Positions 24,605 through 59,946 of a stretch of DNA of 64,000 nucleotides are shown here, one piece after another. The stretch is taken from positions 29,883-93,882 of the forward strand of contig CAZWEI010000001.1 in the NCBI GenBank assembly GCA_964632135.1. The letters run 5' to 3'. Position 1 is the stretch's first letter. Each line of letters opens with the position of its first letter. The stretch comes from Candidatus Micrarchaeota archaeon (lineage in GTDB: Archaea; Micrarchaeota; Micrarchaeia; Burarchaeales; JBFMAP01). A model generated the notes under the pieces. That model was not told where the DNA came from. It was given only the letters and a program-made list of their open reading frames with translations, and did not search any database. Made by a program: the position numbers and the translations under genes.

Positions 24605-24738
24605 TGCTCCGACCTGTCGCGTGTTTGGACACTCCTGCTCATGACTCGTTCATTGTGCGGGGTGTCCTTACCGCTTCACACCCTCTTCGTTAAATCCTAT
24701 ACACGCCAACAGTTTATCGTGATTACGGATTTTTCGCG

Positions 24739-25056: not shown

Positions 25057-25331
25057 CTCTATCCCCCCTATCCCTCTCTCTATTACATATATATTCCGTT
25101 GAGCGACCCATTTGTTATTTAAACCTCTCCGCCCTAATTATCTCGAAGCGACCCCCGCGATTCGAACGCGGATTTGGATGGTGCCGTTGGCGAGGCTTTA
25201 CATATCCATCCCGTCTTTCCGCTTAGACGAGGGGCGCGCTCTGATGCCATACAGTAGGCATCTGGAGTATTTAAATGTTTCGGAAGCCCCGAAGCGTATA
25301 CGAACGCGCCGAAAGAAATGAGGTGATTGAA

Positions 25332-25763: not shown

Positions 25764-25890
25764 TAGACCCAATCAACCAATAGGCGACGAACAGTCAAAA
25801 CCGCCAAAATCCACCGAAGGCGCGCCAGCACCACCGGCCAAGGCATGATTTAAATTAGTTAGTGGTTTACTCTTAATTTGCCTCGGGGAT

Positions 25891-26880: not shown

Positions 26881-26893
26881 AATCCATCTGCTC

Positions 26894-28345: not shown

Positions 28346-28388
28346 GTTAGTCTGGTGTAAATCGATTACTTAATCGATTGTCTTGTGT

Positions 28389-28841: not shown

Positions 28842-28856
28842 CGCGCTGCACCCCGT

Positions 28857-42224: not shown

Positions 42225-43676
42225 TCACGCTACCTCGCTCTCGTCTGATTTCCTGCGCTTTGCCCCGTAGTCGCTCATTCCCGCGCGCCACCACGAGTCG
42301 TACCTCTCGCTCACCTGCTCCTCTATGCTCCTTCCGCGCTTGAGCGCCGCGCGCACGTGCTTCTCGTCTATCAACTCGCTGCCATCCGTGACCGCGAGGT
42401 CGCCTGCCAACTTTATTATCCCGCTGAGGTCCCGCAGGCGCAGCGTGAGGCCGACGACGTCGTCTATGGATTTTGCGCGCGCCCTCGCCTCGTCAAGAAG
42501 CACGGCAACTGCCTTCGAGTTTGCGTGTGGAATCCTTCCATCTTTCCTTATCTCCTGCGCGATGAACTGCACGAGTTTTTTCCTGTTCTCATCAGTGTCG
42601 GGCATCGTGGTGCCCAGCAGCACCTCGTATCCGTTGCCCAGTATGCGCGAGCGCAGGGGTGGGAGGAGATGATCCATGTCATTCGTGTTGAGCGCGCCTA
42701 TGAGTATGAAGTCGCACGGCACGTTGTCAACGCGTATTGATGCGCCTGTGCTCGATGCGTTGCGCCCGGCAATCGGGAATTTCTTCTCCTGCATGGCTGT
42801 CAGAAGATATCTCTGCAAATATCCAAGCGTCGCTATCTCATCAATAAATAAAACGCCCTCGTGCGCCTCGTGAATCGCGCCCGGCACCACGCGCAAGTAA
42901 GCGGCCATTCCAATCTCCGGATGACCGCCGTATGGATCGTGCTTCACATCGCCGACAAGTTCGGTCTCGCTCGCGCCCGTCGCCTGAATGAACGTGTTTC
43001 GCTGAAGAGGAAGAATTATTTTGCGCGGGCGCTTTGATTCTATTTCTTCAATTTTCCGCAAAGATGACTGGTCATAGATGCGAATCTTTCCCTCCTCGTC
43101 GCGCTCGTAAAGAACGACCTCCTCGCGCCCGTCCGGGAATGCGCGCGTCGTGTGAACGCGGTCCTCCCTCACCTCGCCCATGAACCCGAAAATCAAATCG
43201 TCAAATGGGGACAACTCGCGGCGGTATTTATCCGCCCCGCACTTTGGGCAGACCGGCGTGTTGAAGTTGCTGAGGTTCCCGCACCTTTTGCACCTGAACC
43301 CGAGCCTCTCGGCGACGAACGACGGAACCTCGGAAGCGGAAAGCATCTTGCCCTCGAATTCCTTCGGCTTCCTATCCTTCACTATTTTCTCGCGGTCGCG
43401 CACCTCAATCACTGGCCGCTCTGGGTTTTCCGGATTGTGGAGAACGGAGACCTCCTGCGTCGGCTGCGGGAGTATGAATGCAATCGCCTGCGCGAGCATG
43501 CTCTTCCCTGTGCCCGGAGGGCCGACGAGAAGGAGATGACGGCGCTGCCTCGCGACCACGCGCGCTATCTTAACTACCTCGTCCTGCCCGATTATCATTT
43601 CTAGAGGATTTTTAGGCAGAATGATTTCCCGCGTGCTCTCGAAATCGAGGAAGCCGGCGCGCGCGTCTGGTTCCAT
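42225..43676 (-). CDS. LonB-type AAA+ ATPase without the protease domain; a zinc ribbon replaces the LonB membrane anchor
   Basis: QDEVVKIARVVARQRRHLLLVGPPGTGKSMLAQAIAFILP closely matches the archaeal LonB N-terminus. A CKRCGN...CPKCG insert sits between Walker A and B. Sensor-2-like RLRDLSGIIKLAGDLA...KHV is present. The protein ends there, with no Ser-Lys protease domain. Confidence 0.65.
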   Translation of the reverse strand: MEPDARAGFLDFESTREIILPKNPLEMIIGQDEVVKIARVVARQRRHLLLVGPPGTGKSMLAQAIAFILPQPTQEVSVLHNPENPERPVIEVRDREKIVKDRKPKEFEGKMLSASEVPSFVAERLGFRCKRCGNLSNFNTPVCPKCGADKYRRELSPFDDLIFGFMGEVREDRVHTTRAFPDGREEVVLYERDEEGKIRIYDQSSLRKIEEIESKRPRKIILPLQRNTFIQATGASETELVGDVKHDPYGGHPEIGMAAYLRVVPGAIHEAHEGVLFIDEIATLGYLQRYLLTAMQEKKFPIAGRNASSTGASIRVDNVPCDFILIGALNTNDMDHLLPPLRSRILGNGYEVLLGTTMPDTDENRKKLVQFIAQEIRKDGRIPHANSKAVAVLLDEARARAKSIDDVVGLTLRLRDLSGIIKLAGDLAVTDGSELIDEKHVRAALKRGRSIEEQVSERYDSWWRAGMSDYGAKRRKSDESEVA

Positions 43677-43722: not shown

Positions 43723-46143
43723 CTACTGTAATAAAAGGCATTTTCCCTCACCTAAGTTACAATCTGAGTAGCAGCAGTCCCAATCATCGCTACAATCTCC
43801 TCCATCGGGAACACACGCAACACCACCACATATACCGCTAGTGCATGATACGCCAGGGCAACAGTCGCTATCCTGAGTGCACTCTTCGCCGTTAATTCGA
43901 CATGACTTACATTTGTAACCTGTAGTATCGCAATAGCCCGCATATTGGACGTCCTGAATGTCGTCGTAGGATCCGCAGCATTGGTACACCCCTATTTCAC
44001 CAAACAATATGCGCTCTTGCTCCAGGGTAAAAGAGGATGCGGCGCCGCGCTGGTCCTTAGGCGTAAACAGCATAACTCCTGTGCCTGGACCTTTGGATAG
44101 CCCAACTTGACAATTGGAGCCTGTAGCAACACAATACGCGCATGTGTTGTTGGTACCGTAACAAAACGCTCCATCCTCGTGATAGCAACACTCATCACTG
44201 GTTGCACACATTCTGCCTAATGCCGTGCATTCCGGGCAGATATTGGCTGCGTCACACGTAACGGCGGGGTTGCAGCAGTCCCTGTATTTTTCACCGGTTC
44301 CACTGTCAACACCACAACCCCAATAACCCGTAAGAGTGCAGTTCTGGCACGTTCCTTCGTAGCAAGCCGCGTCGTATCCATAGCCCATCGTATTTTCATT
44401 ATAACCGCAGCAGTCCTCGTTTTGCGTGCAGCTCTCGGTCAAGGCGCTGCATAATGGCGGAATGTAGCGGCACGTGCAGTCCGTCGCGTTTACCGCCCAG
44501 TTTATGGGACATGTTACGCCGGAGCAGTCGCACTGGCAGTTACTGTCGTTGCGCTTTCCGCCCGCTGTTTCGTTGCAGGAGTTCTGGCAGTCGCATGAGC
44601 AGTCGGTAGTGAGGTGTATGGGTTGGTTGTTGCACATCGTTTCTGAAATCTGCTGCTGTCTTGCGGGGTCGCCGCAGTTGCACGCGCAGTCCATGTTGTA
44701 CGTGCCTCCGTGGCAGTCGTTTGAGCAGTGGCAGACGCAGTACTCGTCAAGAGCCCCGCCAAACGCGCACGTCGCATTCGTGCAGTCGCAGGTGCAGTCA
44801 GGATAAGGCGCCTGCTGCTCGCCGTTGCAGCTCCAGTAACAAGACGAGGACGAGTATGAACAACCCCATCCCTCCTTGCAGCAAAGCCCGTTTGGATTGC
44901 AGTAAAAGCCAGTGCAGCATGTTTCGTTGTCGCTTTCGTTGTAAGGACCTACTTTGCAATTTGACGGGTGGTGCGTGCATATGGATTTGGGGAATTTGAA
45001 TTCGCATCGTTCGGTCGTGGAGTTGCAGGTATAGCCTGGGCAGCACGGGGCAGAGGAATTGCAGGGCAATGGATTTGCGCAATGAACGCAAGTCCCATGG
45101 GAATCAGTGCAGCAGTTTTGAGTACTGTTCCAAACCGAACCGTACGGACAGCAACTAGACGTAGGGCAGGTTGCTGGATATGCTACGGGATCGCATGTTC
45201 TTTCCGCCGGGCATGCAAAAACGCACACCCCGGCGCTGTTGGTACAGCATTTCTGGGTCGCATTCCAAACAGCGCCGGCTGGACAGCAGCCCGAGGAGGG
45301 GCAGGTTATCGGATAGAGCATATGGCTGCACATTCTTTTTGCAGGGCATGACGGAGTTGTTGCGCATTCCCCGGTGCCGTCTAAGCAGCAGGGTTCAGGG
45401 GAGGAACCGCTGGCACCCCAACTGGTGCCGGACGGACAGCAGCCTGAGGATGGGCACGTCGCGGGATTAGCCGCTGGATTACACGTTCTTTCTATTGGGC
45501 AGAAAGAAACGCAAACTCCGGCGCTGTTTGTGCAGCAGTTTTGCGTTGTGTTCCAAATTGTGCCGACAGGGCAGCAATCCGTCGCGGGGCATGTTGCGGG
45601 GTGAGCGGAATGGCTGCACTCTCTCGCTGTCGGGCATATGAATAGGCACGTTCCGAAGTTGTCAAGGCAGCAATTTTGTGTATTATTCCAAACCGTAAAT
45701 TTTGGACAACAGCCGGAGGATGGACAAGTTTCAGGGTATGCCGACGGATTGCACCGCATGTCAGGCAGACAAAGAGATGAAATGCATTTCATTTGATGGC
45801 AAACAGAATCAGGACAGCATGCGTATGGATCTCCTTGAGGCACGCCAACTTTGCATTTGGGCGGATTTGAACAAGAGATGTAGGCGCATATTCCGTATTT
45901 GTCAGTGCAGCAGTTCTGAACAGTGTCCCAAACCGTGTTTGTAGGGCAGCATCCTGATGGAGGACACACCGCGGGGTATGCCGATGGGTCGCATTGCCGA
46001 GCAGTTGGACAAGTTGGCTTGACCGGAACAACCCCGCTTGTTTTGCATAGGAGCGCGATTAGGAGAAGCAGGATCATGCCTCCTACAAGAACCCCGAGTT
46101 TCTCTTGCGGTGAAGAGCCGGGACGGGCAGGCATTGGTTCCAT
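43723..46143 (-). CDS. 806-aa secreted or anchored Cys-rich tandem-repeat glycoprotein
   Basis: N-terminal signal/anchor; at least six ~45-aa repeats of the form C..A.P..CP.SGCCP.G..WN.TQNCCT.S.G.CV (visible also as ~135-bp DNA repeats); about 110 Cys in total; many N-x-S/T sequons. Confidence 0.55.
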   Translation of the reverse strand: MEPMPARPGSSPQEKLGVLVGGMILLLLIALLCKTSGVVPVKPTCPTARQCDPSAYPAVCPPSGCCPTNTVWDTVQNCCTDKYGICAYISCSNPPKCKVGVPQGDPYACCPDSVCHQMKCISSLCLPDMRCNPSAYPETCPSSGCCPKFTVWNNTQNCCLDNFGTCLFICPTARECSHSAHPATCPATDCCPVGTIWNTTQNCCTNSAGVCVSFCPIERTCNPAANPATCPSSGCCPSGTSWGASGSSPEPCCLDGTGECATTPSCPAKRMCSHMLYPITCPSSGCCPAGAVWNATQKCCTNSAGVCVFACPAERTCDPVAYPATCPTSSCCPYGSVWNSTQNCCTDSHGTCVHCANPLPCNSSAPCCPGYTCNSTTERCEFKFPKSICTHHPSNCKVGPYNESDNETCCTGFYCNPNGLCCKEGWGCSYSSSSCYWSCNGEQQAPYPDCTCDCTNATCAFGGALDEYCVCHCSNDCHGGTYNMDCACNCGDPARQQQISETMCNNQPIHLTTDCSCDCQNSCNETAGGKRNDSNCQCDCSGVTCPINWAVNATDCTCRYIPPLCSALTESCTQNEDCCGYNENTMGYGYDAACYEGTCQNCTLTGYWGCGVDSGTGEKYRDCCNPAVTCDAANICPECTALGRMCATSDECCYHEDGAFCYGTNNTCAYCVATGSNCQVGLSKGPGTGVMLFTPKDQRGAASSFTLEQERILFGEIGVYQCCGSYDDIQDVQYAGYCDTTGYKCKSCRINGEECTQDSDCCPGVSCTSGICGGVACVPDGGDCSDDWDCCYSDCNLGEGKCLLLQ
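45100..46020. repeat. tandem ~135-bp coding repeats (Cys-rich module array)
   Basis: Repeated DNA segments such as ...gcaaactccggcgctgtttgtgcagcagttttgcgttgtgttccaaa... and ...gcacaccccggcgctgttggtacagcatttctgggtcgcattccaaa.... Confidence 0.6.
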
Positions 46144-46187
46144 ACGGTTTACAACCCCGAGTGTTTATCTTTTTATTTGTTTATAAA

Positions 46188-49100
46188 CTATTCGGCGCGG
46201 CATTTGTACTCATCGTACAACTGCATTATGCGCGAGGGATCGCACATCGTGCTGTTCGTCTCGTTTGCAGCGCACATCGTCATCGTCAATCCTTGCGAGC
46301 GGTAGTAATAGTCCGCGCATCCCTTGAACCATTCCTCGAATCCCTCCTTGCGCGCGTAAGCAGGCGGACCGGTGGTCAAACCGTAATTACCCGTGAGCGG
46401 CTGGCACGTGCCGTCCATCAGGCAGTATTGCGCGATTCCGGAAATCCCGGCGCCTGTGAGTTGGTATGTTTCTTTTTCGTACATTTCCGCGAACGCAGCG
46501 CCGACGCCTTTTCCGGCGCACGCGCCGACGCCCACGCCTTCCAGATTATAGGAGAGAATAACTGTCGGCTTTGTGTAATTGTACACCACGAACCTCGAAA
46601 GATTTTTAATCTCGTCCCACGCCCTGCTCGCGTTGCACACGCATTCTCCTCCTGTCTCCTCGCATATTGAACTCGTGTTCGCGAAAACGATGAAACCCAC
46701 CATGTCGGTGCTGTTGCGCGCGAGCCGCATTATGTTTTGTATATCAGCCTCTGTCGCGCCTGGAAGCCTGACCGCGAAAGTGGTCGTGCAGTTCGCGCAC
46801 TCTTTCGTGATGTTTTTCAATTGGTCCGCGATGCAGTTTTGATTTGAAAGGGGGATGGAGATGTCCTGCGTGAGAAGCGTGGGCCACGAGGGGCCGAACG
46901 GGTTGTATTTTTTGTAGTAGAACTTGTCCCAGAAAGGAGTCATGTACTCTGGATTGTTGTCAAGATAACTGTTCAGTTTTTGCGCGAGAGGAACAACGTC
47001 CGCCCCTGAGCAGGCGCCAGGGGCAAGAGTGATGAGGAGCGAGAGGCCGGTCGAGACGTCTGTTATTGTTATATCTACGGACGGCATCGTAATGCACTGC
47101 GTCTCGTTCGGCGCGAGGGAAATTAACGCAGGTAGCGGGGGCGGATTTGGCGCGAGCGAAAGTTGGTGGTTCCTGTTGTCCAGATTGTAGAAGCATATCC
47201 GCGTCCCTTCTTTCGCGCTCATATTCATCGAAGGCTCGAAGAGTTGGTCGATTATCGGGACCACGATGTCGTACGTGTAACTGACTATCCCCTCGCGGTT
47301 GTTGCTCACGCAGTCGATGAGCGTGTGCCTTCCCACATCTGGCGACCAGCAGTACGGGCTCGTCTGGTTTATGGTCGGGAGCAGGCTCGCGTTGTAGCCC
47401 CCTCCTGGACGCTCCTGGATGAGAAGGAGCCTGTACCCCCCTGCGTATGCGCCGCTCGCATTCCAGCAGACCGTGCTGCCCGGCGAAGTTGTCACGACCT
47501 CCTGCGAGAAGTTCATCTCAGCGAGGGAAACCTCTCTCGTGCCGCCGACAATCGGCATAGTCACATCAACGGTCATGCAGCCCATCTGGCTGCTGTCAAA
47601 GGTTGAAGGACAACTCACCTCAGGGACGTACAGCGTCATTCTTGTCGGCGGGGTTACGTCGCATATTCTTAAACTATAATCGCCTCCTCCGACATCCTCG
47701 AGTTGTATTTTCACTGCCGAGCGCGCGGGAACAACTACGTTTGGCGGCGAGACAGGAACGACCCACGCGTACTGGCCGGCAGGAAGGCCGGTGAAGCAAA
47801 CGCTATCATCCTCGTGCACGGATAGAGTGCTCCACGGGGACGGGCTGGTCAGATCCGGATCGTTCATATCTATGTCCGCGCCATAGTAGAATGTTTCCGT
47901 GGAGGAGCGTTTGCAGGTGGAAATACTTACGTGCGTGGCGAAGGTGAGCGCGATCGGGAAGGTCATGTTCGCGCCCGCAGCAAGGTGGTATTCCACGCCA
48001 TTGAGCGAGAACCATCTCGCATACGCGCCGCCGTTGTTGATAATTTTTGGAATCACCCTGCTGTAGCGCACCCCTTTATCAAGCATCGAATAGGAGCACC
48101 AGCAGAGATTCCACACGTTCTGGTCAGTGCAGTTGTCATAAACCCAGTCGCCGCAAAAGTCATCTATGCATTTGTCAAACGGCTGCTGCAGGGTGAGGTT
48201 GATCGCCGAGGTATCGGTGAACTCGCTTGAGTTCAGAACGTTCATATTGAATTTCTTGTGATCGCCAAAAATATCGCGGTAATAGACTTCATACGAGCCG
48301 ACCGGGAAGTTGAAGCACTGGCCGTTGCTGAATCTGAAGCCATTGAAGAAATTGTAATCTATCGAAAGGACTCTGTCCTTGTACCCGCGGTTTTTGAAGT
48401 AGAGCTCGTTATTGTTTGTCGTGAGCGTTGAGGGAGTGAACGGGGCGAATGTGAGGCTTATGATCGCGCTCAGGTTTTGGACATCTACAGTATATCTGCG
48501 CGCGGACACGTCGTCTTCGAGCACGTACGAGCCAGCAGAGATGTTTGAGACGTTGCGCGTTCCGCCTGGCGGGAGGGTTAGCGACCCTAGCCACGAGCCG
48601 CTCTGCGCGAGAGTGTGGCTCAAGCGGTCGATGTTCCTCCAGGAGACGTTGCTTCCCGCGGGCACGCCGTAATATTCATCGAGCAGCAGGCCGGAAATAT
48701 CAACGCGCATGGTCTCATCCGCGCCCCCGCTGTTGAAAACGAGCGCGGTCAGGACATCCTGATTCAGGAGGTCTTTCAGGTTCATCAGCGTGACAGTCCC
48801 TATGTCCCCGAAAACATCCTGGACCGCGAGCCCGAGGCTCAAATTCGATTCGGTCGCAGGGCCGATGAAATAAACGTCCTGCGAGAACGCCTTCGACTCC
48901 TGGATGATGAGCGTGCTCGTCGCGTTCGCGGTCGCATTGTCTGTTGCATTTATTGGATATTCGTACTCGTAGTAGAACTGCCTCACGCCTACTGTGGAGG
49001 GTACTGAAGACTCGAGGTCCCAGAAAATTCGCTGGTTCGGACTTACGGTCTGCCCGGTCCAAAAGTCCATTGGAACGTCCACTGTTCTGGTGCGCGCGAA

Positions 49101-51854
49101 CAACGTGTGATTGACATTATCCGCGTTTTCCCAATAAACCGTTTCATTGTTGTATACGTAAATCAGATTCGGATAGGTTCCTGCCGAGGTCATGAAAAAC
49201 TTCTTCTCCTGCGAACTCGTGATGATGAGCGTGTGGTTCTGGGTGATGTTCTCGGAACGCACGACATAATCGTAGTAGTAATGAATCCCCGCTGCGACCG
49301 AAGTGCAAATCACGCGCTCTGGCAGCACTATGCCGATTGACGTGATGTTGTGCTCGACATCATCCGAGTTTATGAGGCAGATGCTGCCGCCCGGAGGAAC
49401 GCTCACGTAATTCGGCGACGGACCGAGCATCGTGAGGTTTATGTTCGTAGGAAGCGTGGGGCTTACCGTTATAGTCGCGTTTGTTCGCGTGACATTGTCC
49501 CGAACACCATAAATTTGCAGGGACTCGTTGATGAGTGTAAAGCAGACCCTGCTCTTCGCGAGAACATCGAAAACAGCAGGAAGAGGCGGCAGGAAATTTG
49601 AAGTGAGGCGCCTGTCAAGCCTGCCCGGGTTTATGAAGCACAGTGTTGTATTTGAAACAAGCGCGAGATTGGAAGGCTTGAACGCAGGGTCCTGCAACCT
49701 GACCGTATATTCGGACGTTTTGCCCGTGACGTAGACGGTCACGAACGGCGGGGTGGAGATCGTTATGTTTAAGTAATAGCCCCTGGTTCCGCCGCCGGCG
49801 CAGGATACCGTCGCGTTTATGTCGATTATGTTGTACGCCCCGCGCTGATAGTTTGGAAGCTGGAATCCGCCCATCCAATTCTGTGAGCCGCAGACACAAA
49901 TGTTGTCATCCATCTGCGGACCGGCGGGCTGGCGGTTGATTAGCGTGTTCCCGCAATCGCTTATCAAGAACCCGCTCACGAGCACGCTCATCGCTTCAGG
50001 GGGGACGTATAAATTCAGCCTGTAGGACGCTGTCCCGCTCACGTCAGTTTCGTATTGCTGGAAAGAGAGCGCGGTGCTGTTCGTGCCCGCTGCATTGATG
50101 TCGTAGAAAATGTATGTTCCAGGCGTCCTGTCCTCATATGCACCGGAATACTGGTTGAGGAAAGACGCGCGCGACTGCCAGCAGCACGAGGAGCTGTTGG
50201 ACACTGAATGGATTTCTTTCGGCACAAGCATCTCGCCTTCAAGTTTGTACACGTGCAGGGTGTGCGATTTGCTCGCGTCGGTGTTGTTGAAGCAGACGTC
50301 GTCTCCCCATATTATTCCGACCTCCTCTGGGTTCGGGCCGCCTGCCGCAAGCTCGACCTTGTTGTTGATGCTCTTAACGAATATTGAGCCGTATGTGTCC
50401 GTGTTTATGTCGCGGAAAGCGTGTGGTCCTAGTTTTTTCATCGCGCCAGGCGGAAGTGTCAGGGTTCCGCCTGCGAGTACTGTTTGGGTTATGTCAGGCG
50501 TGGGCTCGGTGTCGTCTCCGAACCATAGTTCTATAATGTGGGCCTCCTCTGCGTTGTTTCGTATCGAGATGTTCTGCCCCTCTGAAACGACAAGGTCTGC
50601 GGGCATGAACGAGTCAGCATCGAGGTAGATGAAGCCTTCTGAACTTATCGCGAGCGTCGATTCGAGTCCTGTTTTTGCGTCAGTAACCGTGTATTCTTCG
50701 GCAGGCGGCGGGGAGAAGGTGTGGTTTAGCGTGAAGTTCGATGAGCACGTGAGCGCGCTCACGTTGAGATTTTCCTTCGGGCGCGGTCCTGAGAACGCGA
50801 GGGTGTGAACCGGTATCGTCGAGTTCGCGACGTTGTCCCAGCAGATGAGCGAGCCGTCCGTTATCGTTATTTCATCAGGCTCGAAAAGCGGGTCGCCGAC
50901 AGTCATCTCCGAAACTTTTTCAAGTTTCGGCTTGCAGTATTCCCTCGCGCTGAGGAAATCGTTGAAACTCGGGCCCTGGCCGAGCATGAAGTACTGGAGT
51001 TCCTTGAAAGGGTCGCGCGTAATCGCGTACAACTCGTTCGCCCCGCATGGAATTTCTGTGAGGAGAAGACCGCCCTGCAGAGTCGCCTCGTAGTGCACTG
51101 CGCACGAGCCCCAGAACGTGCGCGTCCCAGCCCGGTCGTTGCATTCGTACGCGACCTGCGCAGAATAACCGGACAGACATTCCGCGGTGCACCCGCTGGT
51201 CGTAACCGAGGTGGGGGGCAGTACGACCATGCAGCCGTAGCCGACGCACGGGGGCTTGTAAATTCTGTATGTATACGAAACTCCAAGATGCGTAACTGTC
51301 ACATCCTCATATTCGCACGTGCAACCGTTCGGGCTCTGGTCGGGTACAAGAGGACAGCAGTAATAATGCGCGCAGTGGGAGGAGTGGTGGGCCCAACTGC
51401 AGCAAAGGAAGCAGCCTCCGCACGCGCAGCCGTGAACCTCCCAGCCCAAGAAATCCATCGTGCCGATGCCCCCGCAGTTGCAGCAGTCGTCGCACGTCAT
51501 CCTCGTCCATTTTCCGGCATCGTTGCAGGAGTCATACGCGAAACAAGCATACATCGGCGCGCCCGTTGTCCTTATGTCCTTGCAGCTGTCGCCCCATTTC
51601 GTGTTGAACTCGCGCGGATCGAGCCCCTGCCCCTTGCTGGTGTATCCTCCGCTGCATTCCCAGCGCGTGTAGAGGGGCCTCTTCGCCCTCACCTGGCACA
51701 TGCACGTGGCGTTCTCGCACGAGGAGGTCGCCTCGATTCTGACCTCAATCGTGCTCGGCACGCTTGTGCGCGGCGTCATGTAAAGGCATCCGAACAAGAA
51801 TAGGAACACAAACGCGAGGCTGAAAAAAACCAATGGTGAGATTTCCCTTTTCAT
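46188..51854 (-). CDS. 1888-aa giant secreted surface (glyco)protein with lipobox-like signal peptide
   Basis: N-terminal FLFLFGC signal; a Cys-rich N-terminal ~250 aa; a long region with dozens of N-x-S/T sequons; no C-terminal TM anchor. The + frame is unbroken for 5.6 kb. Confidence 0.6.
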   Translation of the reverse strand: MKREISPLVFFSLAFVFLFLFGCLYMTPRTSVPSTIEVRIEATSSCENATCMCQVRAKRPLYTRWECSGGYTSKGQGLDPREFNTKWGDSCKDIRTTGAPMYACFAYDSCNDAGKWTRMTCDDCCNCGGIGTMDFLGWEVHGCACGGCFLCCSWAHHSSHCAHYYCCPLVPDQSPNGCTCEYEDVTVTHLGVSYTYRIYKPPCVGYGCMVVLPPTSVTTSGCTAECLSGYSAQVAYECNDRAGTRTFWGSCAVHYEATLQGGLLLTEIPCGANELYAITRDPFKELQYFMLGQGPSFNDFLSAREYCKPKLEKVSEMTVGDPLFEPDEITITDGSLICWDNVANSTIPVHTLAFSGPRPKENLNVSALTCSSNFTLNHTFSPPPAEEYTVTDAKTGLESTLAISSEGFIYLDADSFMPADLVVSEGQNISIRNNAEEAHIIELWFGDDTEPTPDITQTVLAGGTLTLPPGAMKKLGPHAFRDINTDTYGSIFVKSINNKVELAAGGPNPEEVGIIWGDDVCFNNTDASKSHTLHVYKLEGEMLVPKEIHSVSNSSSCCWQSRASFLNQYSGAYEDRTPGTYIFYDINAAGTNSTALSFQQYETDVSGTASYRLNLYVPPEAMSVLVSGFLISDCGNTLINRQPAGPQMDDNICVCGSQNWMGGFQLPNYQRGAYNIIDINATVSCAGGGTRGYYLNITISTPPFVTVYVTGKTSEYTVRLQDPAFKPSNLALVSNTTLCFINPGRLDRRLTSNFLPPLPAVFDVLAKSRVCFTLINESLQIYGVRDNVTRTNATITVSPTLPTNINLTMLGPSPNYVSVPPGGSICLINSDDVEHNITSIGIVLPERVICTSVAAGIHYYYDYVVRSENITQNHTLIITSSQEKKFFMTSAGTYPNLIYVYNNETVYWENADNVNHTLFARTRTVDVPMDFWTGQTVSPNQRIFWDLESSVPSTVGVRQFYYEYEYPINATDNATANATSTLIIQESKAFSQDVYFIGPATESNLSLGLAVQDVFGDIGTVTLMNLKDLLNQDVLTALVFNSGGADETMRVDISGLLLDEYYGVPAGSNVSWRNIDRLSHTLAQSGSWLGSLTLPPGGTRNVSNISAGSYVLEDDVSARRYTVDVQNLSAIISLTFAPFTPSTLTTNNNELYFKNRGYKDRVLSIDYNFFNGFRFSNGQCFNFPVGSYEVYYRDIFGDHKKFNMNVLNSSEFTDTSAINLTLQQPFDKCIDDFCGDWVYDNCTDQNVWNLCWCSYSMLDKGVRYSRVIPKIINNGGAYARWFSLNGVEYHLAAGANMTFPIALTFATHVSISTCKRSSTETFYYGADIDMNDPDLTSPSPWSTLSVHEDDSVCFTGLPAGQYAWVVPVSPPNVVVPARSAVKIQLEDVGGGDYSLRICDVTPPTRMTLYVPEVSCPSTFDSSQMGCMTVDVTMPIVGGTREVSLAEMNFSQEVVTTSPGSTVCWNASGAYAGGYRLLLIQERPGGGYNASLLPTINQTSPYCWSPDVGRHTLIDCVSNNREGIVSYTYDIVVPIIDQLFEPSMNMSAKEGTRICFYNLDNRNHQLSLAPNPPPLPALISLAPNETQCITMPSVDITITDVSTGLSLLITLAPGACSGADVVPLAQKLNSYLDNNPEYMTPFWDKFYYKKYNPFGPSWPTLLTQDISIPLSNQNCIADQLKNITKECANCTTTFAVRLPGATEADIQNIMRLARNSTDMVGFIVFANTSSICEETGGECVCNASRAWDEIKNLSRFVVYNYTKPTVILSYNLEGVGVGACAGKGVGAAFAEMYEKETYQLTGAGISGIAQYCLMDGTCQPLTGNYGLTTGPPAYARKEGFEEWFKGCADYYYRSQGLTMTMCAANETNSTMCDPSRIMQLYDEYKCRAE

Positions 51855-51863: not shown

Positions 51864-52601
51864 TCATTTGTTATTGAAACTCAGCAACTCCATGCTCCCG
51901 CCGCCGCCCTCGGCGGTGGAAACTATTTTTACTGGCACTGGGACTCCGTCGGCAATCCAGACTGTGCTCGCCTCCTCTGGAAGCGAATACACGCTCGTGT
52001 TGAAAACGCCGGCGGGAACGCGCACCTCCTCGTGCCTGAGCAGTTTCGCGCCCGCGAGGTTTTCCTTGCACATCACGCCGGGTATGCCGGATACGTCGGC
52101 GCAATCAGCCTCTGTGGTGAAAGGCTGGCCCCCTGCGAAGCTCATCGAGATTTCAAGCTTTTTGCACTTGAGCGTGTTTTTCTCGAGCCACATCAGACTA
52201 TTCATGCTCGCGCTCTGCCCCTGAACCGAAGCGTTCGTTGAAATCTCGACCTTGTACGTGTCGGTCCCGTCCACGAGTTCGGTTCCTATATAATTGTACG
52301 ATGTGCGCGCCTCCTGCGTGCCTCCATATTGGCTGTCCGCCGAAACCTTGTAGGCATACGAGAACTCGGGGGTCATGTTGAACAGCGGGGTGCAGTTCAT
52401 GGGCTCGGCGCGCGGCTTTTGAGTTCCGTTCTCCGAGAGGTTTCCCACGGAGAAAACTGAAAAATTCTCACCTGCACTCGGCATCGGAGGCGGCGTATAC
52501 GAGAGCGATGAGATGAGAACCAGTATCACCCCCAGAATTATTATCGCGAGAACCGTCATCTGCGCAACAACGCTCATGTTTCTCTGAACCAGTTTTTTCA
52601 C
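51864..52601 (-). CDS. N-terminally anchored hypothetical protein (operon member)
   Basis: MKKLVQRNMSVVAQMTVLAIIILGVILVLI anchor, then an extracellular domain with sequons and a C-terminal GGGGS. Confidence 0.4.
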   Translation of the reverse strand: MKKLVQRNMSVVAQMTVLAIIILGVILVLISSLSYTPPPMPSAGENFSVFSVGNLSENGTQKPRAEPMNCTPLFNMTPEFSYAYKVSADSQYGGTQEARTSYNYIGTELVDGTDTYKVEISTNASVQGQSASMNSLMWLEKNTLKCKKLEISMSFAGGQPFTTEADCADVSGIPGVMCKENLAGAKLLRHEEVRVPAGVFNTSVYSLPEEASTVWIADGVPVPVKIVSTAEGGGGSMELLSFNNK

Positions 52602-52615: not shown

Positions 52616-53641
52616 TTACAATATTTTAAATAAACTCCTGCCCATCTCGGAAACGTCCGCGCCAAGGACAGGCGCGATCGCGCGCACGAACGCGAACGTG
52701 ACCACGAGCACGACAATGGGGTAGAAGAACGCGTAGACTATCATGCTCACCGTCTGGCCCCCGAGGCCGGACGAGCCCATCGCCGCCTCTGCCTGCGCGA
52801 CCTTTATCAGCGTCGCGAACGCGGCTGGGTCGTTCGCGCATATGTTCGTGCTCATCGTTATCTGCGGGGCCTGGCATCCGGATGGCGGGGAGCCGGAACT
52901 CATCAGAATCACTACGAACATGAGCGGATATACGATGTAAAGGCCGATGGCGAGCGCGATCATGAGCGCGCCTGCGCCGCGCGTGTACGGGAATATTCGA
53001 AGTATGATTCCTATCGGCAGATAAACCGTGAACATCGCGGTCTCAACCCACTGGAGGAGGTTGTACTGGAAGTAGAGCGCGAGCGCGAGCCACGTGAGGC
53101 TGTTCGCCTTGTAGTGCGCCTCCACGATCATGCTGTACAGCGGATACGAGAACCATTTGAAAGGAATCGGAATCCGGAGTATGAACGGCGAGACGATGAT
53201 GTCGCTCGCGAGAAGCCGCTCTATCCCCGGCTTGTACGTCTCCTTGTATTTCGACTCGACGCACTTGAGCATCGCGCGCAAATATACATAACTCGCGTCG
53301 AACGGGCTCACCTTCGCGAGCCCCGCCATGCCCGGCACGACTATGCTGCCTGCGAAAATCTCCGTCTGATTTTGGATGAGGCCGACGCCGTAGGATTCGC
53401 CTGAAACTATTGTGAAAAGAAGGACCACGAGAATAATTGAAGCAAGCACCTGCGCTAGTTCGCTCTTCACCCATCTCCTGAGGTCCGGAAGCTCGAAAAA
53501 TTTCGAGAGCATGTACGCGAGCGCGACTATGAAAATCTGTATCATTATCGCGAGGAGCGCGATCGCAATCCAGCTCGCGTCGCCCAGGACGGTTTTTCCA
53601 AGGTCAGCCGCAGTCGTGTTCCACATAACATCATCTTTCAA
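52616..53641 (-). CDS. polytopic membrane protein, paralog family (NE[LIF]YQ / LPIG-LR-FP-TR / C-terminal LGxDVxI motifs), member 1
   Basis: VKSELAQV; YLPIGIILRIFPYTRGAGALMIALAIGLYIVYPL; C-terminal PVLGADVSEMGRSLFKIL. Confidence 0.55.
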   Translation of the reverse strand: MKDDVMWNTTAADLGKTVLGDASWIAIALLAIMIQIFIVALAYMLSKFFELPDLRRWVKSELAQVLASIILVVLLFTIVSGESYGVGLIQNQTEIFAGSIVVPGMAGLAKVSPFDASYVYLRAMLKCVESKYKETYKPGIERLLASDIIVSPFILRIPIPFKWFSYPLYSMIVEAHYKANSLTWLALALYFQYNLLQWVETAMFTVYLPIGIILRIFPYTRGAGALMIALAIGLYIVYPLMFVVILMSSGSPPSGCQAPQITMSTNICANDPAAFATLIKVAQAEAAMGSSGLGGQTVSMIVYAFFYPIVVLVVTFAFVRAIAPVLGADVSEMGRSLFKIL

Positions 53642-53665
53642 TCATATCCGATCATTGTCTTTATA

Positions 53666-54652
53666 TCACACCATCCTCGTCAGCGTCGTGATGTCGACCT
53701 CCTCGCCAAGCGCGCGGGAGAGGTCGCGCACGACCGCTATTATTATTATACTATTTATGGCAGGAAGCAGGAACGCCGCGAAAATCACCGTCGCGATTTG
53801 CGATATCGCCCTGCTCAGGAAGAAATCGGCGATCAGCGATTCGATCGTGAAAACGGCGACCATTATGTTTCCTGTGACCGCGGAGACCGCGATTGATGGA
53901 ATGCTTGACTTCAGCGCCTCAAGGACGTCCCTCCAGACGGACACGCTCTCTACGCTCGTGGGCTGCCCGAGCACGACGAAATTCAGCATGAGCATGAACG
54001 GATACGCGACGAACAGGCCGATCGCGATTGCCATGAGCGCGCCGCCGAACTTCCGCGTGATTGGGAACGAGCGGCACACCACGCCGATTGGAAGGAGGAT
54101 GCTGAGCATCCCCACGTTTATTATTTTCAGCACGACAATCTGCGCGATGGTCACGAGAAGGCATATCGCCACCGCATTCACGAGGAAATTCAGTATGGTC
54201 ATTAGCGCGCTGAGCCCTGCGAAAGGCGACATTATCACCGTGACGAATGTGATTGGGAGTCCGCCGGTAAACGAGGAGAGCATCATAACTATGTTCGACA
54301 TCCCGAGAACTCCTCCGAGAACGACCGCGGTCTTGTCCCTGAGCCAGAGCAGAAAGAACTCCGCGACGTCAAACATGTTCCCGCCAACGTTCAGCCCGAA
54401 ATCGGAGAAGTTGAGCGAGCACAGCGTCGTGACGAGGAGTATGATGGACGCGAGGAAGAGCGCGGTTATGAAAACCTGGTAGAGTTCATTCTTTGCGCGC
54501 GCAACAAGCCAGGGGTTTCCCATGTACGTGCCTATCATGTAGAGCAGGGAGATTACGAAATAGGACGTGAGGATGCCTATCAAACTCAGCCCCTGCCAGC
54601 TGCCAAGCCAGTCACTGGGCGACACGCACGCGTTCGGCATTGCCATTTTCAC
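53666..54652 (-). CDS. polytopic membrane protein, same paralog family, member 2
   Basis: AKNELYQV; LLPIGVVCRSFPITRKFGGALMAIAIGLFVAYPF; C-terminal RALGEEVDITTLTRMV. Confidence 0.55.
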   Translation of the reverse strand: MKMAMPNACVSPSDWLGSWQGLSLIGILTSYFVISLLYMIGTYMGNPWLVARAKNELYQVFITALFLASIILLVTTLCSLNFSDFGLNVGGNMFDVAEFFLLWLRDKTAVVLGGVLGMSNIVMMLSSFTGGLPITFVTVIMSPFAGLSALMTILNFLVNAVAICLLVTIAQIVVLKIINVGMLSILLPIGVVCRSFPITRKFGGALMAIAIGLFVAYPFMLMLNFVVLGQPTSVESVSVWRDVLEALKSSIPSIAVSAVTGNIMVAVFTIESLIADFFLSRAISQIATVIFAAFLLPAINSIIIIAVVRDLSRALGEEVDITTLTRMV

Positions 54653-54694: not shown

Positions 54695-55780
54695 TCAGAT
54701 TATTTTCACGAGCGAGGTGAAATCGATCTCCGCGCCCAGGAGGGACGCGAGGGACCTCGTGAACATTATCGTGGCGATGAGGCACATAAGCGGCAGCAGC
54801 ACCGCAGCGACGACGGACATGTAGAGCATCGGCCCGAAATCCCCCTCGTAAGTCATTTCCTTCACGAACTCCGAGGGCGCGCTCCCTCCCCTGTTGAACA
54901 TGTCGTCGATTATGTCGCGCGCGTTCCCCGCCATCGCGAGCGTGAGGCTGCCACTGCATTTGTAGGTGTTGCAGTGGTCGCGGACTATCTGCTCGGACGC
55001 GAGATACGTGAGCGGAAGAACGATGTAGAAACCAATCGAAATCGCGATGAACGCGCCGCCTGCCATCCTCGTGAACGGGAACGCGCGCAGCGCAATCCCC
55101 ACAGGAAGGAAGAACGCGAACATGTAATCGCGCGCGAACTCGAGGAGCATCTCCTGCGCGCGCAACTGTATTATCGAAAGCGAGAGGATGGAGAGCGCGT
55201 AACCGAACATGTCCATGACGGGCCTGAACGCCGCGCCGGGCACAATATCAAACGTGAGCGCCTGCTTTATGTCGAACATCAGCGTCATCGAGGCGATTGC
55301 ACCCGCGAGTATGTCGAAGTGAATCATCGTCTTCACGTAGCCTGTTATCTGCTCCCGGAGGGCGCGCGCATATGCGACGGCGTGGTTCTGGAGCGCGTTC
55401 CAGTCGCCCGCGCACGAGAACGAGGAGTATGTGTAAGTGCCGGTGCCATTCAAGAAATTTGTGCTGCAGAACGCGGGGAACAGCATGGTGTTCAGGTACC
55501 AGTCCGCGGAGATGAGCATCCCGAGCATGAACGCCGTCGCCGCTAGTTGGTAGAACTCGTTGCGCGCGAACGAGATGAGGTTGTTCGAATTCACTCCGGT
55601 GCCCACCGCGTATATGAGCGCCATCACCGTGAGCATGGTGAGCAGGACTATGAGCGTCACTGTCTGCCATCTCTGGCACCAGACGGACGTGCAGTCCGCA
55701 CGAACAAGCGTTGAGAGCAGCACTAACGCGACGAAGGCGAGCAGAATTTTTCTTGCGTTCTTCATTGCCGGTTTTTTCAT
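54695..55780 (-). CDS. polytopic membrane protein, same paralog family, member 3 (Cys-containing N-terminal extension)
   Basis: ARNEFYQL; FLPVGIALRAFPFTRMAGGAFIAISIGFYIVLPL; C-terminal SLLGAEIDFTSLVKII. Confidence 0.55.
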   Translation of the reverse strand: MKKPAMKNARKILLAFVALVLLSTLVRADCTSVWCQRWQTVTLIVLLTMLTVMALIYAVGTGVNSNNLISFARNEFYQLAATAFMLGMLISADWYLNTMLFPAFCSTNFLNGTGTYTYSSFSCAGDWNALQNHAVAYARALREQITGYVKTMIHFDILAGAIASMTLMFDIKQALTFDIVPGAAFRPVMDMFGYALSILSLSIIQLRAQEMLLEFARDYMFAFFLPVGIALRAFPFTRMAGGAFIAISIGFYIVLPLTYLASEQIVRDHCNTYKCSGSLTLAMAGNARDIIDDMFNRGGSAPSEFVKEMTYEGDFGPMLYMSVVAAVLLPLMCLIATIMFTRSLASLLGAEIDFTSLVKII

Positions 55781-57135: not shown

Positions 57136-57141
57136 TCAAGC

Positions 57142-59826: not shown

Positions 59827-59946
59827 TATTCGCGCACCAATAGTATTTCGTAGAAGGGTTTTAATCCTTTGCTGAGTTGTACTCCGCGCAACGTCTCGCG
59901 CACGCGCTTAGGATAAATATATAAACTTCGGAGAGGATACACAATC

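What the first reader, a model, noticed from the sequence alone, without database searches (positions are those of the whole stretch)
46188..51854. 1888-aa giant secreted glycoprotein with lipobox-like signal and no membrane anchor
One of the largest ORFs an archaeal genome usually carries. FLFLFGC lipobox-like signal, a Cys-rich N-terminal region, then about 1600 aa dense in N-x-S/T sequons. No TM, PGF-CTERM, or other recognisable C-terminal sorting signal. This could be an S-layer-like or adhesin-like protein dependent on the co-operonic membrane proteins.
Basis: partly seen in the sequence, partly recalled or inferred. Interest (0 to 1): 0.6.

Follow-up and report, generated by a model that had tools for sequence, protein, structure and literature searches.

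The report
Giant lipoprotein of Micrarchaeota envelope cluster
The 1888-residue gene is real and encodes a lipid-anchored, sugar-coated surface protein of a tiny symbiotic archaeon (Micrarchaeota); it always sits beside six related membrane proteins in an undescribed gene cluster that may be part of the cell's contact apparatus.

Summary
The ORF at 46188-51854 (-) is a real gene: dN/dS is 0.15 against an 81%-identical ortholog. It has one N-terminal hydrophobic segment ending in a lipobox-like Cys, which is conserved in 22/22 relatives. It carries 48 N-x-S/T sequons against 19 expected, and 73 Cys. It is not a recognisable S-layer protein. It contains at least ten copper-less cupredoxin-like repeats (profile match to plastocyanin, E 1e-6). 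These repeats are inserted into a domain that is contiguous in a related ~850-aa Micrarchaeota family (hhalign 96.6% and 99.4%). Only 42 relatives exist among 1.84 billion representative proteins; every relative that carries a phylum-level name is from Micrarchaeota. In six loci the giant follows the same array: six anciently diverged, positionally orthologous 5-TM paralogs plus a ~240-aa single-pass protein. The array is usually flanked by a Cys-rich protein and a divergent TM/coiled-coil protein. The paralogs resemble VirB6/CedA only weakly: VirB6 chains are the top Foldseek hits (E 0.15), and the CedA HMM hits three position-4 orthologs. The cluster has no ATPase. Best reading: the giant is the extracellular lipoprotein of a Micrarchaeota-specific envelope complex, possibly used for cell-cell contact. 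The function is inferred. My AlphaFold model of the giant failed.

The parts
46188..51854 (-). Giant protein gene: 1888 aa; the mature form is ~205 kDa with pI 4.7
   Evidence: ORF. Orthologs. dN/dS 0.15. Mass and pI.
51786..51854 (-). Signal peptide with lipobox-like end (residues 1-23, ...LFLFG-C23), followed by the conserved motif xMTPR
   Evidence: It is the only hydrophobic segment. [GAS]-C is conserved in 22/22 relatives. Lipoproteins and AliA are reported as prevalent in DPANN (PMC12462473).
51093..51785 (-). Cys-rich N-terminal region (residues 24-254, 27 Cys), starting with a C-x2-A-x-C-x-C motif that is shared with the short family
   Evidence: hhalign of residues 10-59 against the short family gives 69% probability.
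50886..51092 (-). N module (residues 255-323; QGG...FMxGQGPxFxDFxxAxxYC). It is the first half of a domain that is contiguous in the short Micrarchaeota family.
   Evidence: hhalign 96.6%, E 6.6e-10, to short-family positions 69-140. It contains invariant columns across six giants.
47022..50906 (-). Inserted body (residues 317-1611). It holds ten cupredoxin-like repeats at 317-404, 409-494, 500-587, 718-798, 805-880, 887-984, 1060-1126, 1132-1202, 1442-1525 and 1532-1611. Three unassigned stretches lie at 588-717, 985-1059 and 1203-1441.
   Evidence: Iterated repeat HMM. Cupredoxin_1 or Copper-bind hits in orthologs. Repeat profile against PDB plastocyanins, E 1.1e-6. No Cys/His/Met copper loop.
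46191..47021 (-). C module (residues 1612-1888), predicted to be alpha/beta. It ends in the conserved motif CDPSRxMxLYxxYKC and is the second half of the split domain.
   Evidence: hhalign 99.4%, E 4.3e-21, to short-family positions 198-402. BLAST shows 34% identity to orthologs.
51864..52601 (-). 245-aa single-pass protein (N-terminal TM, beta-rich ectodomain, conserved NCTP motif, 8 sequons). It always lies immediately upstream of the giant.
   Evidence: Alignment of 7 orthologs. Synteny. One ortholog hits DUF3108 at E 1.7e-5.
52616..53641 (-). Membrane paralog 6 (341 aa)
   Evidence: AF2 model with pLDDT 81.6. The top Foldseek PDB hits are TrwI/VirB6 chains, but weakly. Orthologs.
53666..54652 (-). 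Membrane paralog 5 (328 aa)
   Evidence: Paralog alignment. Positional orthology.
54695..55780 (-). Membrane paralog 4 (361 aa, with signal peptide)
   Evidence: NCBIfam CedA hit at E 8.5e-5. The hit recurs in the position-4 orthologs of L008 and L011.
55789..57135 (-). Membrane paralog 3 (448 aa, with a lipobox-like LMFGC and a Cys-rich N-terminus)
57142..58050 (-). Membrane paralog 2 (302 aa; it lacks the C-terminal LGxE motif, as do its orthologs)
58072..59826 (-). Membrane paralog 1 (584 aa, with a signal peptide and a ~190-aa Cys-rich extracellular N-terminal extension)
43723..46143 (-). 806-aa protein with an N-terminal TM and 129 Cys (16%), including repeated C..S.{2,4}P..CP..CCP...W...CC units. 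It lies downstream of the giant.
   Evidence: Homologs occupy the same position in L001, L006, L007 and L002. It is absent in L008 and L011.
59947..64000 (+). Divergently transcribed gene that runs off the window (>1351 aa). It has a signal peptide, a ~180-aa ectodomain, a TM, a conserved NPxGxxDF motif, and then a K/E-rich coiled-coil cytoplasmic region.
   Evidence: Translation. Homologs occupy the same divergent position in L007, L008, L011 and L002.
42225..43676 (-). LonB-like AAA+ ATPase without a protease domain. It is a neighbour, but probably not part of the cluster.
   Evidence: TIGR00764 at 2.3e-108 but below the cutoff. It is present next to the cluster only in the window and L001, not in L002, L006, L007, L008 or L011.

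Best explanation
The gene encodes the extracellular subunit of a Micrarchaeota-specific envelope complex. Shown: it is a conserved, selected coding gene. It has a Sec-type signal that ends in a conserved lipobox-like Cys. Its body is at least ten copper-less cupredoxin-fold (Ig-like) repeats. Its N- and C-terminal modules are homologous to the two halves of one domain that is contiguous in a shorter Micrarchaeota protein family. It is syntenic with six anciently diverged, positionally orthologous 5-TM paralogs, a small single-pass protein, a hyper-Cys-rich membrane-anchored protein and a divergent TM/coiled-coil protein. Inferred: the protein is exported and its Cys23 is lipidated, so the N-terminus stays at the membrane. 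It is disulfide-bonded and, in this lineage, heavily N-glycosylated. The N and C modules re-associate into one globular domain near the membrane, and the ~1300-residue repeat insertion projects outward as a loop or stalk. The six paralogs have an N-out, 5-TM, C-in topology and a tentatively VirB6/CedA-like fold. They form a hetero-oligomeric membrane platform or channel on which the giant, the 245-aa protein and the Cys-rich protein assemble, with the coiled-coil protein attached on the cytoplasmic side. The most likely role is cell-cell (host) contact, and perhaps exchange across it, in an organism that depends on a host. No ATPase belongs to the cluster, so any transport would be passive or driven by something else.
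For: Real gene under purifying selection. Single N-terminal hydrophobic segment, with [GAS]-C conserved in 22/22 relatives. Lipoproteins and the lipidation enzyme AliA are reported as prevalent in DPANN (PMC12462473). Sequon excess of z=7.2. Cupredoxin repeats: an iterated HMM finds 10; Pfam Cupredoxin_1 hits 3/6 orthologs with best E 2.7e-7; the repeat profile matches PDB plastocyanins at E 1.1e-6 over nearly the full length while lacking the Cys/His/Met loop. Split domain: the N and C modules match contiguous positions 69-140 and 198-402 of the short family, at 96.6% and 99.4%. Synteny in six loci. One-to-one positional orthology of the six paralogs, which are 22-31% identical to each other. 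Gene gaps of 6-46 nt. Topology: K+R is 18% in loops 1 and 3 against ~6% elsewhere, and Cys and sequons are confined to the N-terminus and loops 2 and 4. VirB6/CedA likeness: AF2 model with pLDDT 81.6, the top three PDB Foldseek hits are TrwI/VirB6 chains, and the CedA HMM hits the same region in three position-4 orthologs. Family restriction: 42 hits in 1.84e9 representatives; the family members named to phylum level are Micrarchaeota, and most carry no name.
Against: There is no usable structure for the giant; the AF2 model of residues 1203-1888 had pLDDT 32.5. The VirB6/CedA link is weak: Foldseek E is 0.15 with TM 0.30-0.34, the CedA hits are far below the curated cutoff and occur in only one of the six paralog types, and there is no profile match to the TrwI sequence or to any PDB sequence. 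No ATPase or pilin gene is in the cluster. One genome (L005) has a six-paralog array with no giant within 3.6 kb downstream. The Cys-rich protein is missing in L008 and L011. I have no expression, localisation or interaction data. Re-association of the N and C modules and the host-contact role are inferences only.
Confidence: 0.5

Rival explanations
1. It is the S-layer (lattice-forming) protein of this archaeon, or its stalk.
For: It is large, acidic (pI 4.7), secreted and sequon-rich. The known Micrarchaeota S-layer protein is also reported to contain a copper-binding-protein-like domain (bioRxiv 10.1101/2021.04.28.441871).
Against: No S-layer family hit in Pfam or NCBIfam. It has 73 Cys, whereas S-layer proteins, including SLP_Mh, have almost none. 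SLP_Mh is 101 kDa with PF05123. The family is rare (42 representatives), its length varies from 1.9 to 3.4 kaa, and it is embedded in a membrane-protein operon.
Confidence: 0.05
2. It is chiefly an envelope- or glycan-active enzyme. The split N+C domain would be a hydrolase-like alpha/beta domain, as suggested by its relatives that also carry a lysozyme/SLT-like domain. The repeats would be spacers or carbohydrate-binding units.
For: The short family joins the same N+C domain to a C-terminal domain with an SLT signature: Pfam SLT at E 5e-4 in P0068, and a PDB profile search whose top hits are the lytic transglycosylases EmtA and MltC at E 0.08-0.4. The N+C domain has an alternating beta/alpha pattern.
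Against: The giant has no SLT-like domain. The acidic residue of the short family's VTEID motif is not conserved in the giants: the window has TQDIS, and L008 and P0041 have TAPVG. No Pfam, NCBIfam or PDB sequence match identifies the N+C domain as any enzyme.
Confidence: 0.12
3. The cluster is a type IV secretion / Ced-like DNA or protein transfer machine, and the giant is its surface adhesin or tip.
For: The membrane paralogs show weak VirB6/CedA-like signals. CedA and TedA are VirB6 homologs in archaea (PMC9905601). Obligate intracellular Rickettsiales carry 4-5 tandem VirB6 paralogs, some of them giant (PMC2653234, PMC7648143).
Against: There is no VirB4/CedB-like ATPase, no Walker A motif in any cluster protein, and no VirB2-like small pilin gene in the window or in any of the five other loci.
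Confidence: 0.1
4. It is a structural envelope scaffold unrelated to hosts, for example one that maintains the space between membrane and S-layer or the cell shape.
For: It has the same architecture of a lipid anchor plus a long repeat body. It sits in a chromosomal housekeeping neighbourhood with a thermosome, DnaG-like Toprim protein, helicases and an ECF transporter.
Against: Nothing excludes it. The variable length and variable middle region among orthologs and the lineage-specific glycosylation fit an exposed, fast-evolving interaction surface somewhat better than a fixed scaffold.
Confidence: 0.15
5. It is a copper or redox protein, such as a multi-cupredoxin electron conduit or oxidase.
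For: It has ten cupredoxin-fold repeats. One ortholog is annotated 'plastocyanin' by its source.
Against: There is no C-x-H-x-M copper loop anywhere in the protein. In the alignment to plastocyanin, the Cys, His and Met ligand positions are replaced. Only the first His is often kept.
Confidence: 0.02

Closest known systems
Uncharacterised ~750-900-aa Micrarchaeota/Bilamarchaeum lipobox proteins (e.g. MBU0590801.1, MEW6748974.1, MGV8085491.1; P0056-P0068 here)
   Same: They share the lipobox-type signal, the C-x-G-x-C-W-C-M-V-C-like Cys motif, the FMxGQGPxFxDF module, and the alpha/beta module that ends in W(F/Y)xxC. hhalign gives 96.6% and 99.4%.
   Different: In them the two modules are ~58 residues apart, but ~1330 residues apart in the window protein. 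They carry an extra C-terminal SLT/lysozyme-like domain that the giant lacks. The one locus I examined (L009) is not next to the six-paralog array.
VirB6/TrwI (bacterial T4SS) and CedA/TedA (archaeal DNA import), for the co-operonic membrane paralogs
   Same: They are polytopic inner-membrane proteins. The paralogs have an inferred N-out, 5-TM, C-in topology with a large central outside loop (that this matches A. tumefaciens VirB6 is from my memory). TrwI is the top PDB structural hit. The CedA HMM hits the TM3-loop-TM4 region of three position-4 orthologs.
   Different: The similarity is below significance on each single test. There are six distinct paralogs in fixed order instead of one. There is no VirB4/CedB ATPase, no VirB2-like pilin and no other T4SS parts.
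Rickettsiales vir homolog (rvh) T4SS with tandem VirB6 paralogs (PMC2653234, PMC7648143)
   Same: It is a host-dependent organism with a reduced genome, several tandem VirB6-like paralogs, and very large extensions or associated giant proteins.
   Different: The rvh system keeps VirB4, VirB8-11 and VirD4. Its giant parts are fused to VirB6 itself. It is bacterial and diderm.
Cupredoxins (plastocyanin, amicyanin; Pfam PF00127, PF13473)
   Same: The repeat profile aligns to nearly full-length plastocyanin at E 1.1e-6, including the F-x-P...G...N...H strand pattern.
   Different: The copper-binding Cys/His/Met loop is missing. Many repeats carry an intradomain Cys pair instead. There are ten tandem copies inside a 205-kDa surface protein.
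Micrarchaeota S-layer protein SLP_Mh (Micr_00292; bioRxiv 10.1101/2021.04.28.441871)
   Same: It is a secreted, glycosylated surface protein of the same phylum and is reported to have a copper-binding-protein-like domain.
   Different: SLP_Mh has PF05123/TIGR01567 S-layer domains, is 101 kDa and has almost no Cys. None of this holds here.
Large surface proteins of other DPANN, e.g. the Mia14 PKD/Kelch/YVTN/CARDB and LamG proteins (PMC5498576)
   Same: They are very large secreted proteins that take up a sizeable share of a reduced genome, and they are proposed to mediate host contact.
   Different: Their domain content is different. No association with a six-paralog membrane array has been described for them.

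Membership tests
Archaeal S-layer proteins (PF05123/PF05124, TIGR01564/TIGR01567 types) | Match to an S-layer domain model | tested here: not met
   No such hit in Pfam or NCBIfam for the window protein or five orthologs.
Archaeal S-layer proteins | Few or no sulfur-containing residues, and a mass of 40-200 kDa (criteria quoted in bioRxiv 10.1101/2021.04.28.441871) | tested here: not met
   It has 73 Cys (3.9%) and the mature protein is 205 kDa.
Archaeal S-layer proteins | Forms the 2-D lattice and is among the most abundant proteins | not testable with these tools
   This needs proteomics or cryo-ET.
Lipobox lipoproteins | Signal peptide ending in [L/V/I]-3 [A/S/T/V/I]-2 [G/A/S]-1 C+1 (PMC12462473) | tested here: inconclusive
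   The window has L-F-G-C; positions -3, -1 and +1 fit, but F at -2 is non-canonical. Cys preceded by G/A/S is conserved in 22/22 relatives, and many of them are fully canonical (LAGC, LSGC, LSSC).
Lipobox lipoproteins | Lipid modification of the Cys and cleavage of the signal, and presence of AliA/AliB in the genome | not tested
   Only a 64-kb window is available, and I did not look for AliA. The modification itself needs mass spectrometry.
PGF-CTERM / archaeosortase substrates | C-terminal PGF motif plus a TM helix and a basic tail | tested here: not met
   The C-terminus is ...CDPSRIMQLYDEYKCRAE, and there is no hydrophobic segment after residue 28.
Cupredoxin fold (repeat units) | Sequence-profile match to cupredoxin domains | tested here: met
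   PDB plastocyanins at E 1.1e-6 to 1e-4 over profile positions 5-78. Pfam Cupredoxin_1 at 2.7e-7 and Copper-bind at 5e-5 in orthologs.
Blue copper proteins (functional type-1 site) | His...Cys-x(n)-His-x(n)-Met ligand set | tested here: not met
   There is no C-x(1-6)-H-x(1-6)-M in the protein, and the ligand loop is replaced in the alignment.
T4SS / Ced-Ted systems (for the cluster) | VirB6/CedA-like polytopic membrane protein | tested here: inconclusive
   TrwI/VirB6 chains are the top three Foldseek hits, but at E 0.15 and TM 0.30-0.34. The CedA HMM scores 8.5e-5, 5.8e-4 and 0.57 in three position-4 orthologs, all far below the 330-bit cutoff. hhalign against the TrwI sequence is negative.
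T4SS / Ced-Ted systems | VirB4/CedB-type ATPase encoded with the system | tested here: not met
   No P-loop protein lies in the cluster in the window, L002, L006, L007, L008 or L011. The rest of the genome was not searched.
T4SS / Ced-Ted systems | VirB2/CedA1-like small pilin gene | tested here: not met
   The gene gaps of 6-46 nt leave no room for one in the window cluster, and no small gene was called inside the arrays of the other loci.
Known adhesin domain families (PKD, CARDB, LamG, Big, cadherin-like etc.) | Match to such a domain | tested here: not met
   None in the window protein. A distant ortholog, P0043, carries a Laminin_G_3 domain.

The most novel reading that the evidence does not exclude
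The ten-gene cluster encodes a previously unrecognised kind of archaeal cell-cell junction. A hetero-hexameric, ATPase-less channel is built from six VirB6/CedA-derived paralogs. It is crowned by the giant split-domain lipoprotein and a disulfide-knotted protein, and it is tethered inside the cell by a coiled-coil protein. This would be the Micrarchaeota-side structure through which the symbiont docks to, or receives material from, its host. A candidate for it is the ~21-nm barrel-like docking platform seen by cryo-ET in the envelope of the Micrarchaeon ARM-1 (PMC11329633).
Probability: 0.15. Interest if true: 0.9.

Novelty: new variant of a known kind. Interest (0 to 1): 0.62.

Why it matters
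Micrarchaeota and other DPANN archaea have tiny genomes and live attached to hosts. The molecules that make the contact are essentially unknown: the cryo-ET papers I checked describe tubes, docking barrels and attachment organelles without assigning genes to them (PMC11329633, PMC11420986). This window holds a conserved cluster of more than 20 kb, spanning 43.7 kb to the window end. All ten of its products are membrane or surface proteins, and none has a significant family assignment. A cluster that size in a reduced genome is a concrete, testable candidate for that machinery. The giant also shows an unusual piece of protein evolution: about 1300 residues of cupredoxin-fold repeats inserted inside another domain. 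If the VirB6/CedA link holds, the cluster would be an ATPase-less offshoot of conjugation-type machinery in archaea, and a parallel to the VirB6 proliferation in Rickettsiales.

Tried and rejected
1. Direct searches with the giant found nothing beyond three proteins. Pfam, NCBIfam and PDB sequence searches gave no hit. The word-indexed homolog search found only three proteins, even when given an alignment. More orthologs came only through synteny and through the exhaustive HMMER search.

I discarded the model and ran no fold search on it.

4. The profile of the 18 paralogs against PDB sequences gave nothing. hhalign of the paralog profile against R388 TrwI gave nothing.

5. The profile of the N+C domain against PDB gave nothing credible.

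6. I rejected the LonB-like AAA+ gene as the cluster's motor because it is not syntenic in five other loci.

7. I rejected a copper or redox role because the ligands are absent.

8. The DUF3108 hit for the 245-aa family occurs in only 1 of 7 orthologs, so I kept it as a lead only.

9. Literature searches for DPANN/Micrarchaeota combined with VirB6, CedA, giant, cupredoxin or cysteine-rich found no description of this cluster.
Full report
**Observation.** The window carries an ATG-to-stop ORF of 1888 codons at 46188..51854 on the minus strand. It is a real gene.
- An identical protein and an 81%-identical, N-terminally truncated ortholog exist in NCBI data. The ortholog is from a 'Candidatus Micrarchaeota archaeon' MAG.
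- A Nei-Gojobori comparison with that ortholog gives dN/dS = 0.15, and 0.10-0.19 in every 250-codon window.
- The protein has one hydrophobic segment, at residues ~3-28, ending in LFLFG-C23. There is nothing hydrophobic afterwards, and the C-terminus is ...CDPSRIMQLYDEYKCRAE.
- It has 73 Cys, 29 of them in the first 300 residues. It has 48 N-x-S/T sequons against 19.0 +/- 3.9 in shuffles.
- The mature protein would be 205 kDa with pI 4.7.

The exception is 'no membrane anchor', because the lipobox-like Cys is itself the likely anchor.

**Organism and context.** The neighbours are archaeal housekeeping genes: a thermosome, a DnaG-type Toprim protein, helicases and ECF transporter parts. No tRNA or Rfam RNA lies in the window. 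The close relatives that carry a phylum-level name are Micrarchaeota (DPANN).

**Domain anatomy of the giant.** No Pfam, NCBIfam or PDB sequence hit reaches significance for the whole protein.
- A recurring motif, F-x-P-x3-(I/V)-x3-G-x3-C-(F/W)-x-N-x5-H, led to an iterated HMM. It finds ten ~85-residue repeats at 317-404, 409-494, 500-587, 718-798, 805-880, 887-984, 1060-1126, 1132-1202, 1442-1525 and 1532-1611.
- Orthologs hit Pfam Cupredoxin_1 (3 of 6, best 2.7e-7) and Copper-bind (5e-5).
- A profile of 23 repeats matches PDB plastocyanins, amicyanins and nitrite-reductase cupredoxin domains down to E = 1.1e-6 over almost their full length.
- The Cys/His/Met copper loop is replaced in that alignment. 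No C-x-H-x-M pattern occurs anywhere in the protein. The repeats are therefore copper-less cupredoxin-fold (Ig-like) modules, and many carry a probable intradomain Cys pair.
- Three stretches remain unassigned: 588-717, 985-1059 and 1203-1441.

**A split domain.** For an exhaustive HMMER search of 1.84 billion representative proteins, I used an artificial join of residues 1-330 and 1600-1888.
- It found only 42 proteins at E <= 1e-3 and 28 at <= 1e-10.
- Most are giants of 1.9-3.4 kaa. Every hit that carries a phylum-level name is Micrarchaeota or Bilamarchaeum; one is labelled only 'uncultured archaeon' and most carry no name.
- About a dozen hits of 750-900 aa aligned across the artificial junction.
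- I checked this with separate alignments. The giant's residues 255-323 match positions 69-140 of this short family (hhalign 96.6%, E 6.6e-10), and residues 1653-1851 match positions 198-402 (99.4%, E 4.3e-21).
- The lipobox and the first Cys motif also align, at 69% probability.

So the two ends of the giant are the two halves of one domain. That domain is contiguous in the short family, and in the window protein it is interrupted by about 1330 residues of repeats.

The short family also carries a C-terminal lysozyme/SLT-like domain. Pfam SLT scores 5e-4 in one member, and 7 of the 8 weak hits in a PDB profile search are the lytic transglycosylases EmtA and MltC, including the top five. The giant lacks that domain. 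The N+C domain itself has no recognisable relative, and the acidic residue of the short family's VTEID motif is not conserved among the giants. I therefore make no catalytic claim.

My one structure prediction for the giant, on residues 1203-1888, failed with pLDDT 32.5 and was not used.

**Anchor and modifications.** All 22 N-terminally complete members of the giant and short families have G/A/S-Cys at the end of the h-region. Many are canonical lipoboxes such as LAGC, LSGC and LSSC. Lipobox proteins and the lipidation enzyme AliA are reported as prevalent in DPANN (PMC12462473). The sequon excess is strong in the window's subclade (z = 7-9) and moderate or absent elsewhere. Heavy N-glycosylation is therefore a lineage trait, not a family trait.

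**The cluster.** The giant is gene 8 of a tightly packed minus-strand array with gaps of 6-46 nt.
- It begins with six polytopic membrane proteins of 584, 302, 448, 361, 328 and 341 aa. They are 22-31% identical to one another and share motifs such as LPxGxxLRxFPxTRxxG.
- These are followed by a 245-aa single-pass protein, then the giant, then an 806-aa protein with an N-terminal TM and 129 Cys.
- Upstream, a gene of more than 1351 aa is transcribed divergently. It encodes a signal peptide, a small ectodomain, a TM and a long K/E-rich coiled-coil region.
- The same order (six paralogs, a ~240-aa protein, the giant) occurs in L002, L006, L007, L008 and L011. The Cys-rich and coiled-coil genes are present in most of these loci.
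- Each window paralog's best match in the other loci is the paralog at the same position. The sextet therefore predates these lineages and its members are not interchangeable, which suggests a hetero-oligomer (inference).
- One 853-kb archaeal chromosome (L005) has a divergent six-paralog array with no giant within 3.6 kb downstream.
- The LonB-like AAA+ gene at 42225-43676 is adjacent only in the window and in its close relative, so I do not count it as part of the cluster. No cluster protein has a Walker A motif.

**What the paralogs resemble.**
- An AlphaFold model of paralog 6, built with 28 sequences, is confident: pLDDT 81.6, pTM 0.73.
- Its top three Foldseek hits among 350,542 PDB chains are TrwI/VirB6 chains of the R388 type IV secretion system. 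The scores are weak: E 0.15, probability 0.8, TM 0.30-0.34.
- Independently, the NCBIfam CedA model hits the TM3-loop-TM4 region of the position-4 paralog in the window (8.5e-5), in L008 (5.8e-4) and in L011 (0.57). CedA is the archaeal VirB6 homolog (PMC9905601). All three scores are far below the curated cutoff.
- Charge, Cys and sequon distributions give an N-out, 5-TM, C-in topology with large outside loops. From memory, this is also the topology of A. tumefaciens VirB6.
- Against this, a sequence profile search of the PDB and hhalign against TrwI are both negative. Better fold libraries were unavailable.

I rate a true VirB6/CedA relationship at roughly 60%. Even if it is true, the cluster fails the membership test for a T4SS or Ced system, because it has no VirB4/CedB ATPase and no pilin.

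**Interpretation.** The best-supported reading is that the giant is the lipid-anchored, disulfide-stabilised and (in this lineage) heavily glycosylated extracellular subunit of a Micrarchaeota-specific envelope complex. The membrane core of that complex is the six-paralog set. Its repeat body is an insertion that projects from a bipartite membrane-proximal domain.

A role in host contact or exchange is inferred from three things. The phylum lives as an episymbiont. A small genome devotes more than 20 kb to this cluster. The repeat region is variable and presumably surface-exposed.

It is not a recognisable S-layer protein; the identified Micrarchaeota S-layer protein is a 101-kDa, Cys-poor PF05123 protein (bioRxiv 10.1101/2021.04.28.441871). 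It is not a copper protein. Enzyme, T4SS-like and pure-scaffold readings remain as rivals.

**Novelty.** I found no description of this cluster or family in the searchable literature. Papers on Micrarchaeota surface proteins discuss other domain types (PMC5498576), and the cryo-ET studies I checked assign no genes to the observed contact structures (PMC11329633, PMC11420986). I class it as a new variant of known kinds: giant repeat-built surface lipoproteins, and possibly VirB6-type membrane modules. The split-domain architecture and the fixed six-paralog partnership are its new features.

Noticed in passing
window 19798-29582: A low-GC stretch (0.44-0.48, against ~0.53-0.57 elsewhere) carries an IS605 OrfB/TnpB-like gene (19798-20931), a DDE transposase (23080-24372), a C5 cytosine methylase (25891-26880), a Schlafen AlbA_2/HATPase_c_4 protein (26894-28345) and an Eco47II-type restriction endonuclease (28857-29582). 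It looks like a mobile or defence island.
   Followed up: partly
window 42225-43676 (-): A LonB-like AAA+ ATPase (TIGR00764 at 2.3e-108, but below the cutoff). It has no protease domain and has a CxxC...CxxC zinc-ribbon-like insert at about residues 128-147. It lies next to the cluster only in the window and in MAG141.
   Followed up: partly
L009:10001-12637 and proteins P0056-P0068: A family of ~750-900-aa Micrarchaeota lipobox proteins joins the giant's N+C domain, in contiguous form, to a lysozyme/SLT-like domain. The archaea that carry it have no murein of their own. In L009 the gene follows another unannotated 1595-aa protein.
   Followed up: partly
L005:9692-18839 (OY969902.1, an 853-kb uncultured archaeon chromosome): A divergent six-paralog array is followed not by a giant but by two paralogous 293- and 274-aa proteins, each with two N-terminal TMs and a soluble domain. 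A 636-aa polytopic protein lies upstream.
   Followed up: partly
L012:2018-2914: The ortholog of the 245-aa single-pass protein next to the 3405-aa giant P0043 hits Pfam DUF3108 (E 1.7e-5); the other six orthologs do not. P0043 itself carries a Laminin_G_3 domain.
   Followed up: partly
window 55789-57135 (-) and 58072-59826 (-): Paralog 3 also starts with a lipobox-like LLLLMFGC followed by a small Cys-rich segment. Paralog 1 has a ~190-aa Cys-rich extracellular extension with 6 sequons. The membrane core itself therefore carries disulfide-rich ectodomains.
   Followed up: no
window 46188-51854 versus orthologs: The sequon excess is lineage-specific. It is z = 7-9 in the window, P0002, L006, P0029 and P0031, but z = -0.3 to -2.6 in P0003, P0036, P0037 and P0047, even though Asn content is similar in some of these.
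   Followed up: yes
window 50805-51803 (+), 46038-46670 (+), 53412-54482 (+), 55961-57145 (-): Long ORFs of 200-394 aa overlap the cluster genes, antisense or out of frame. Their products are Arg- or Ser-rich and low in complexity, so they look like by-products of composition rather than genes.
   Followed up: no
window 59827-59946: A 120-bp divergent intergenic region lies between paralog 1 and the coiled-coil gene. It holds an A/T-rich TATA-like element (ATAAATATATAAAC) about 25 nt upstream of the coiled-coil gene's ATG, which suggests that the two arms are co-regulated.
   Followed up: no
window giant versus the gene-position index: The exact-sequence look-up of encoding contigs did not find the window protein, although an identical protein, P0001, is in the protein collection on a 138-kb NCBI contig.
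   Followed up: no
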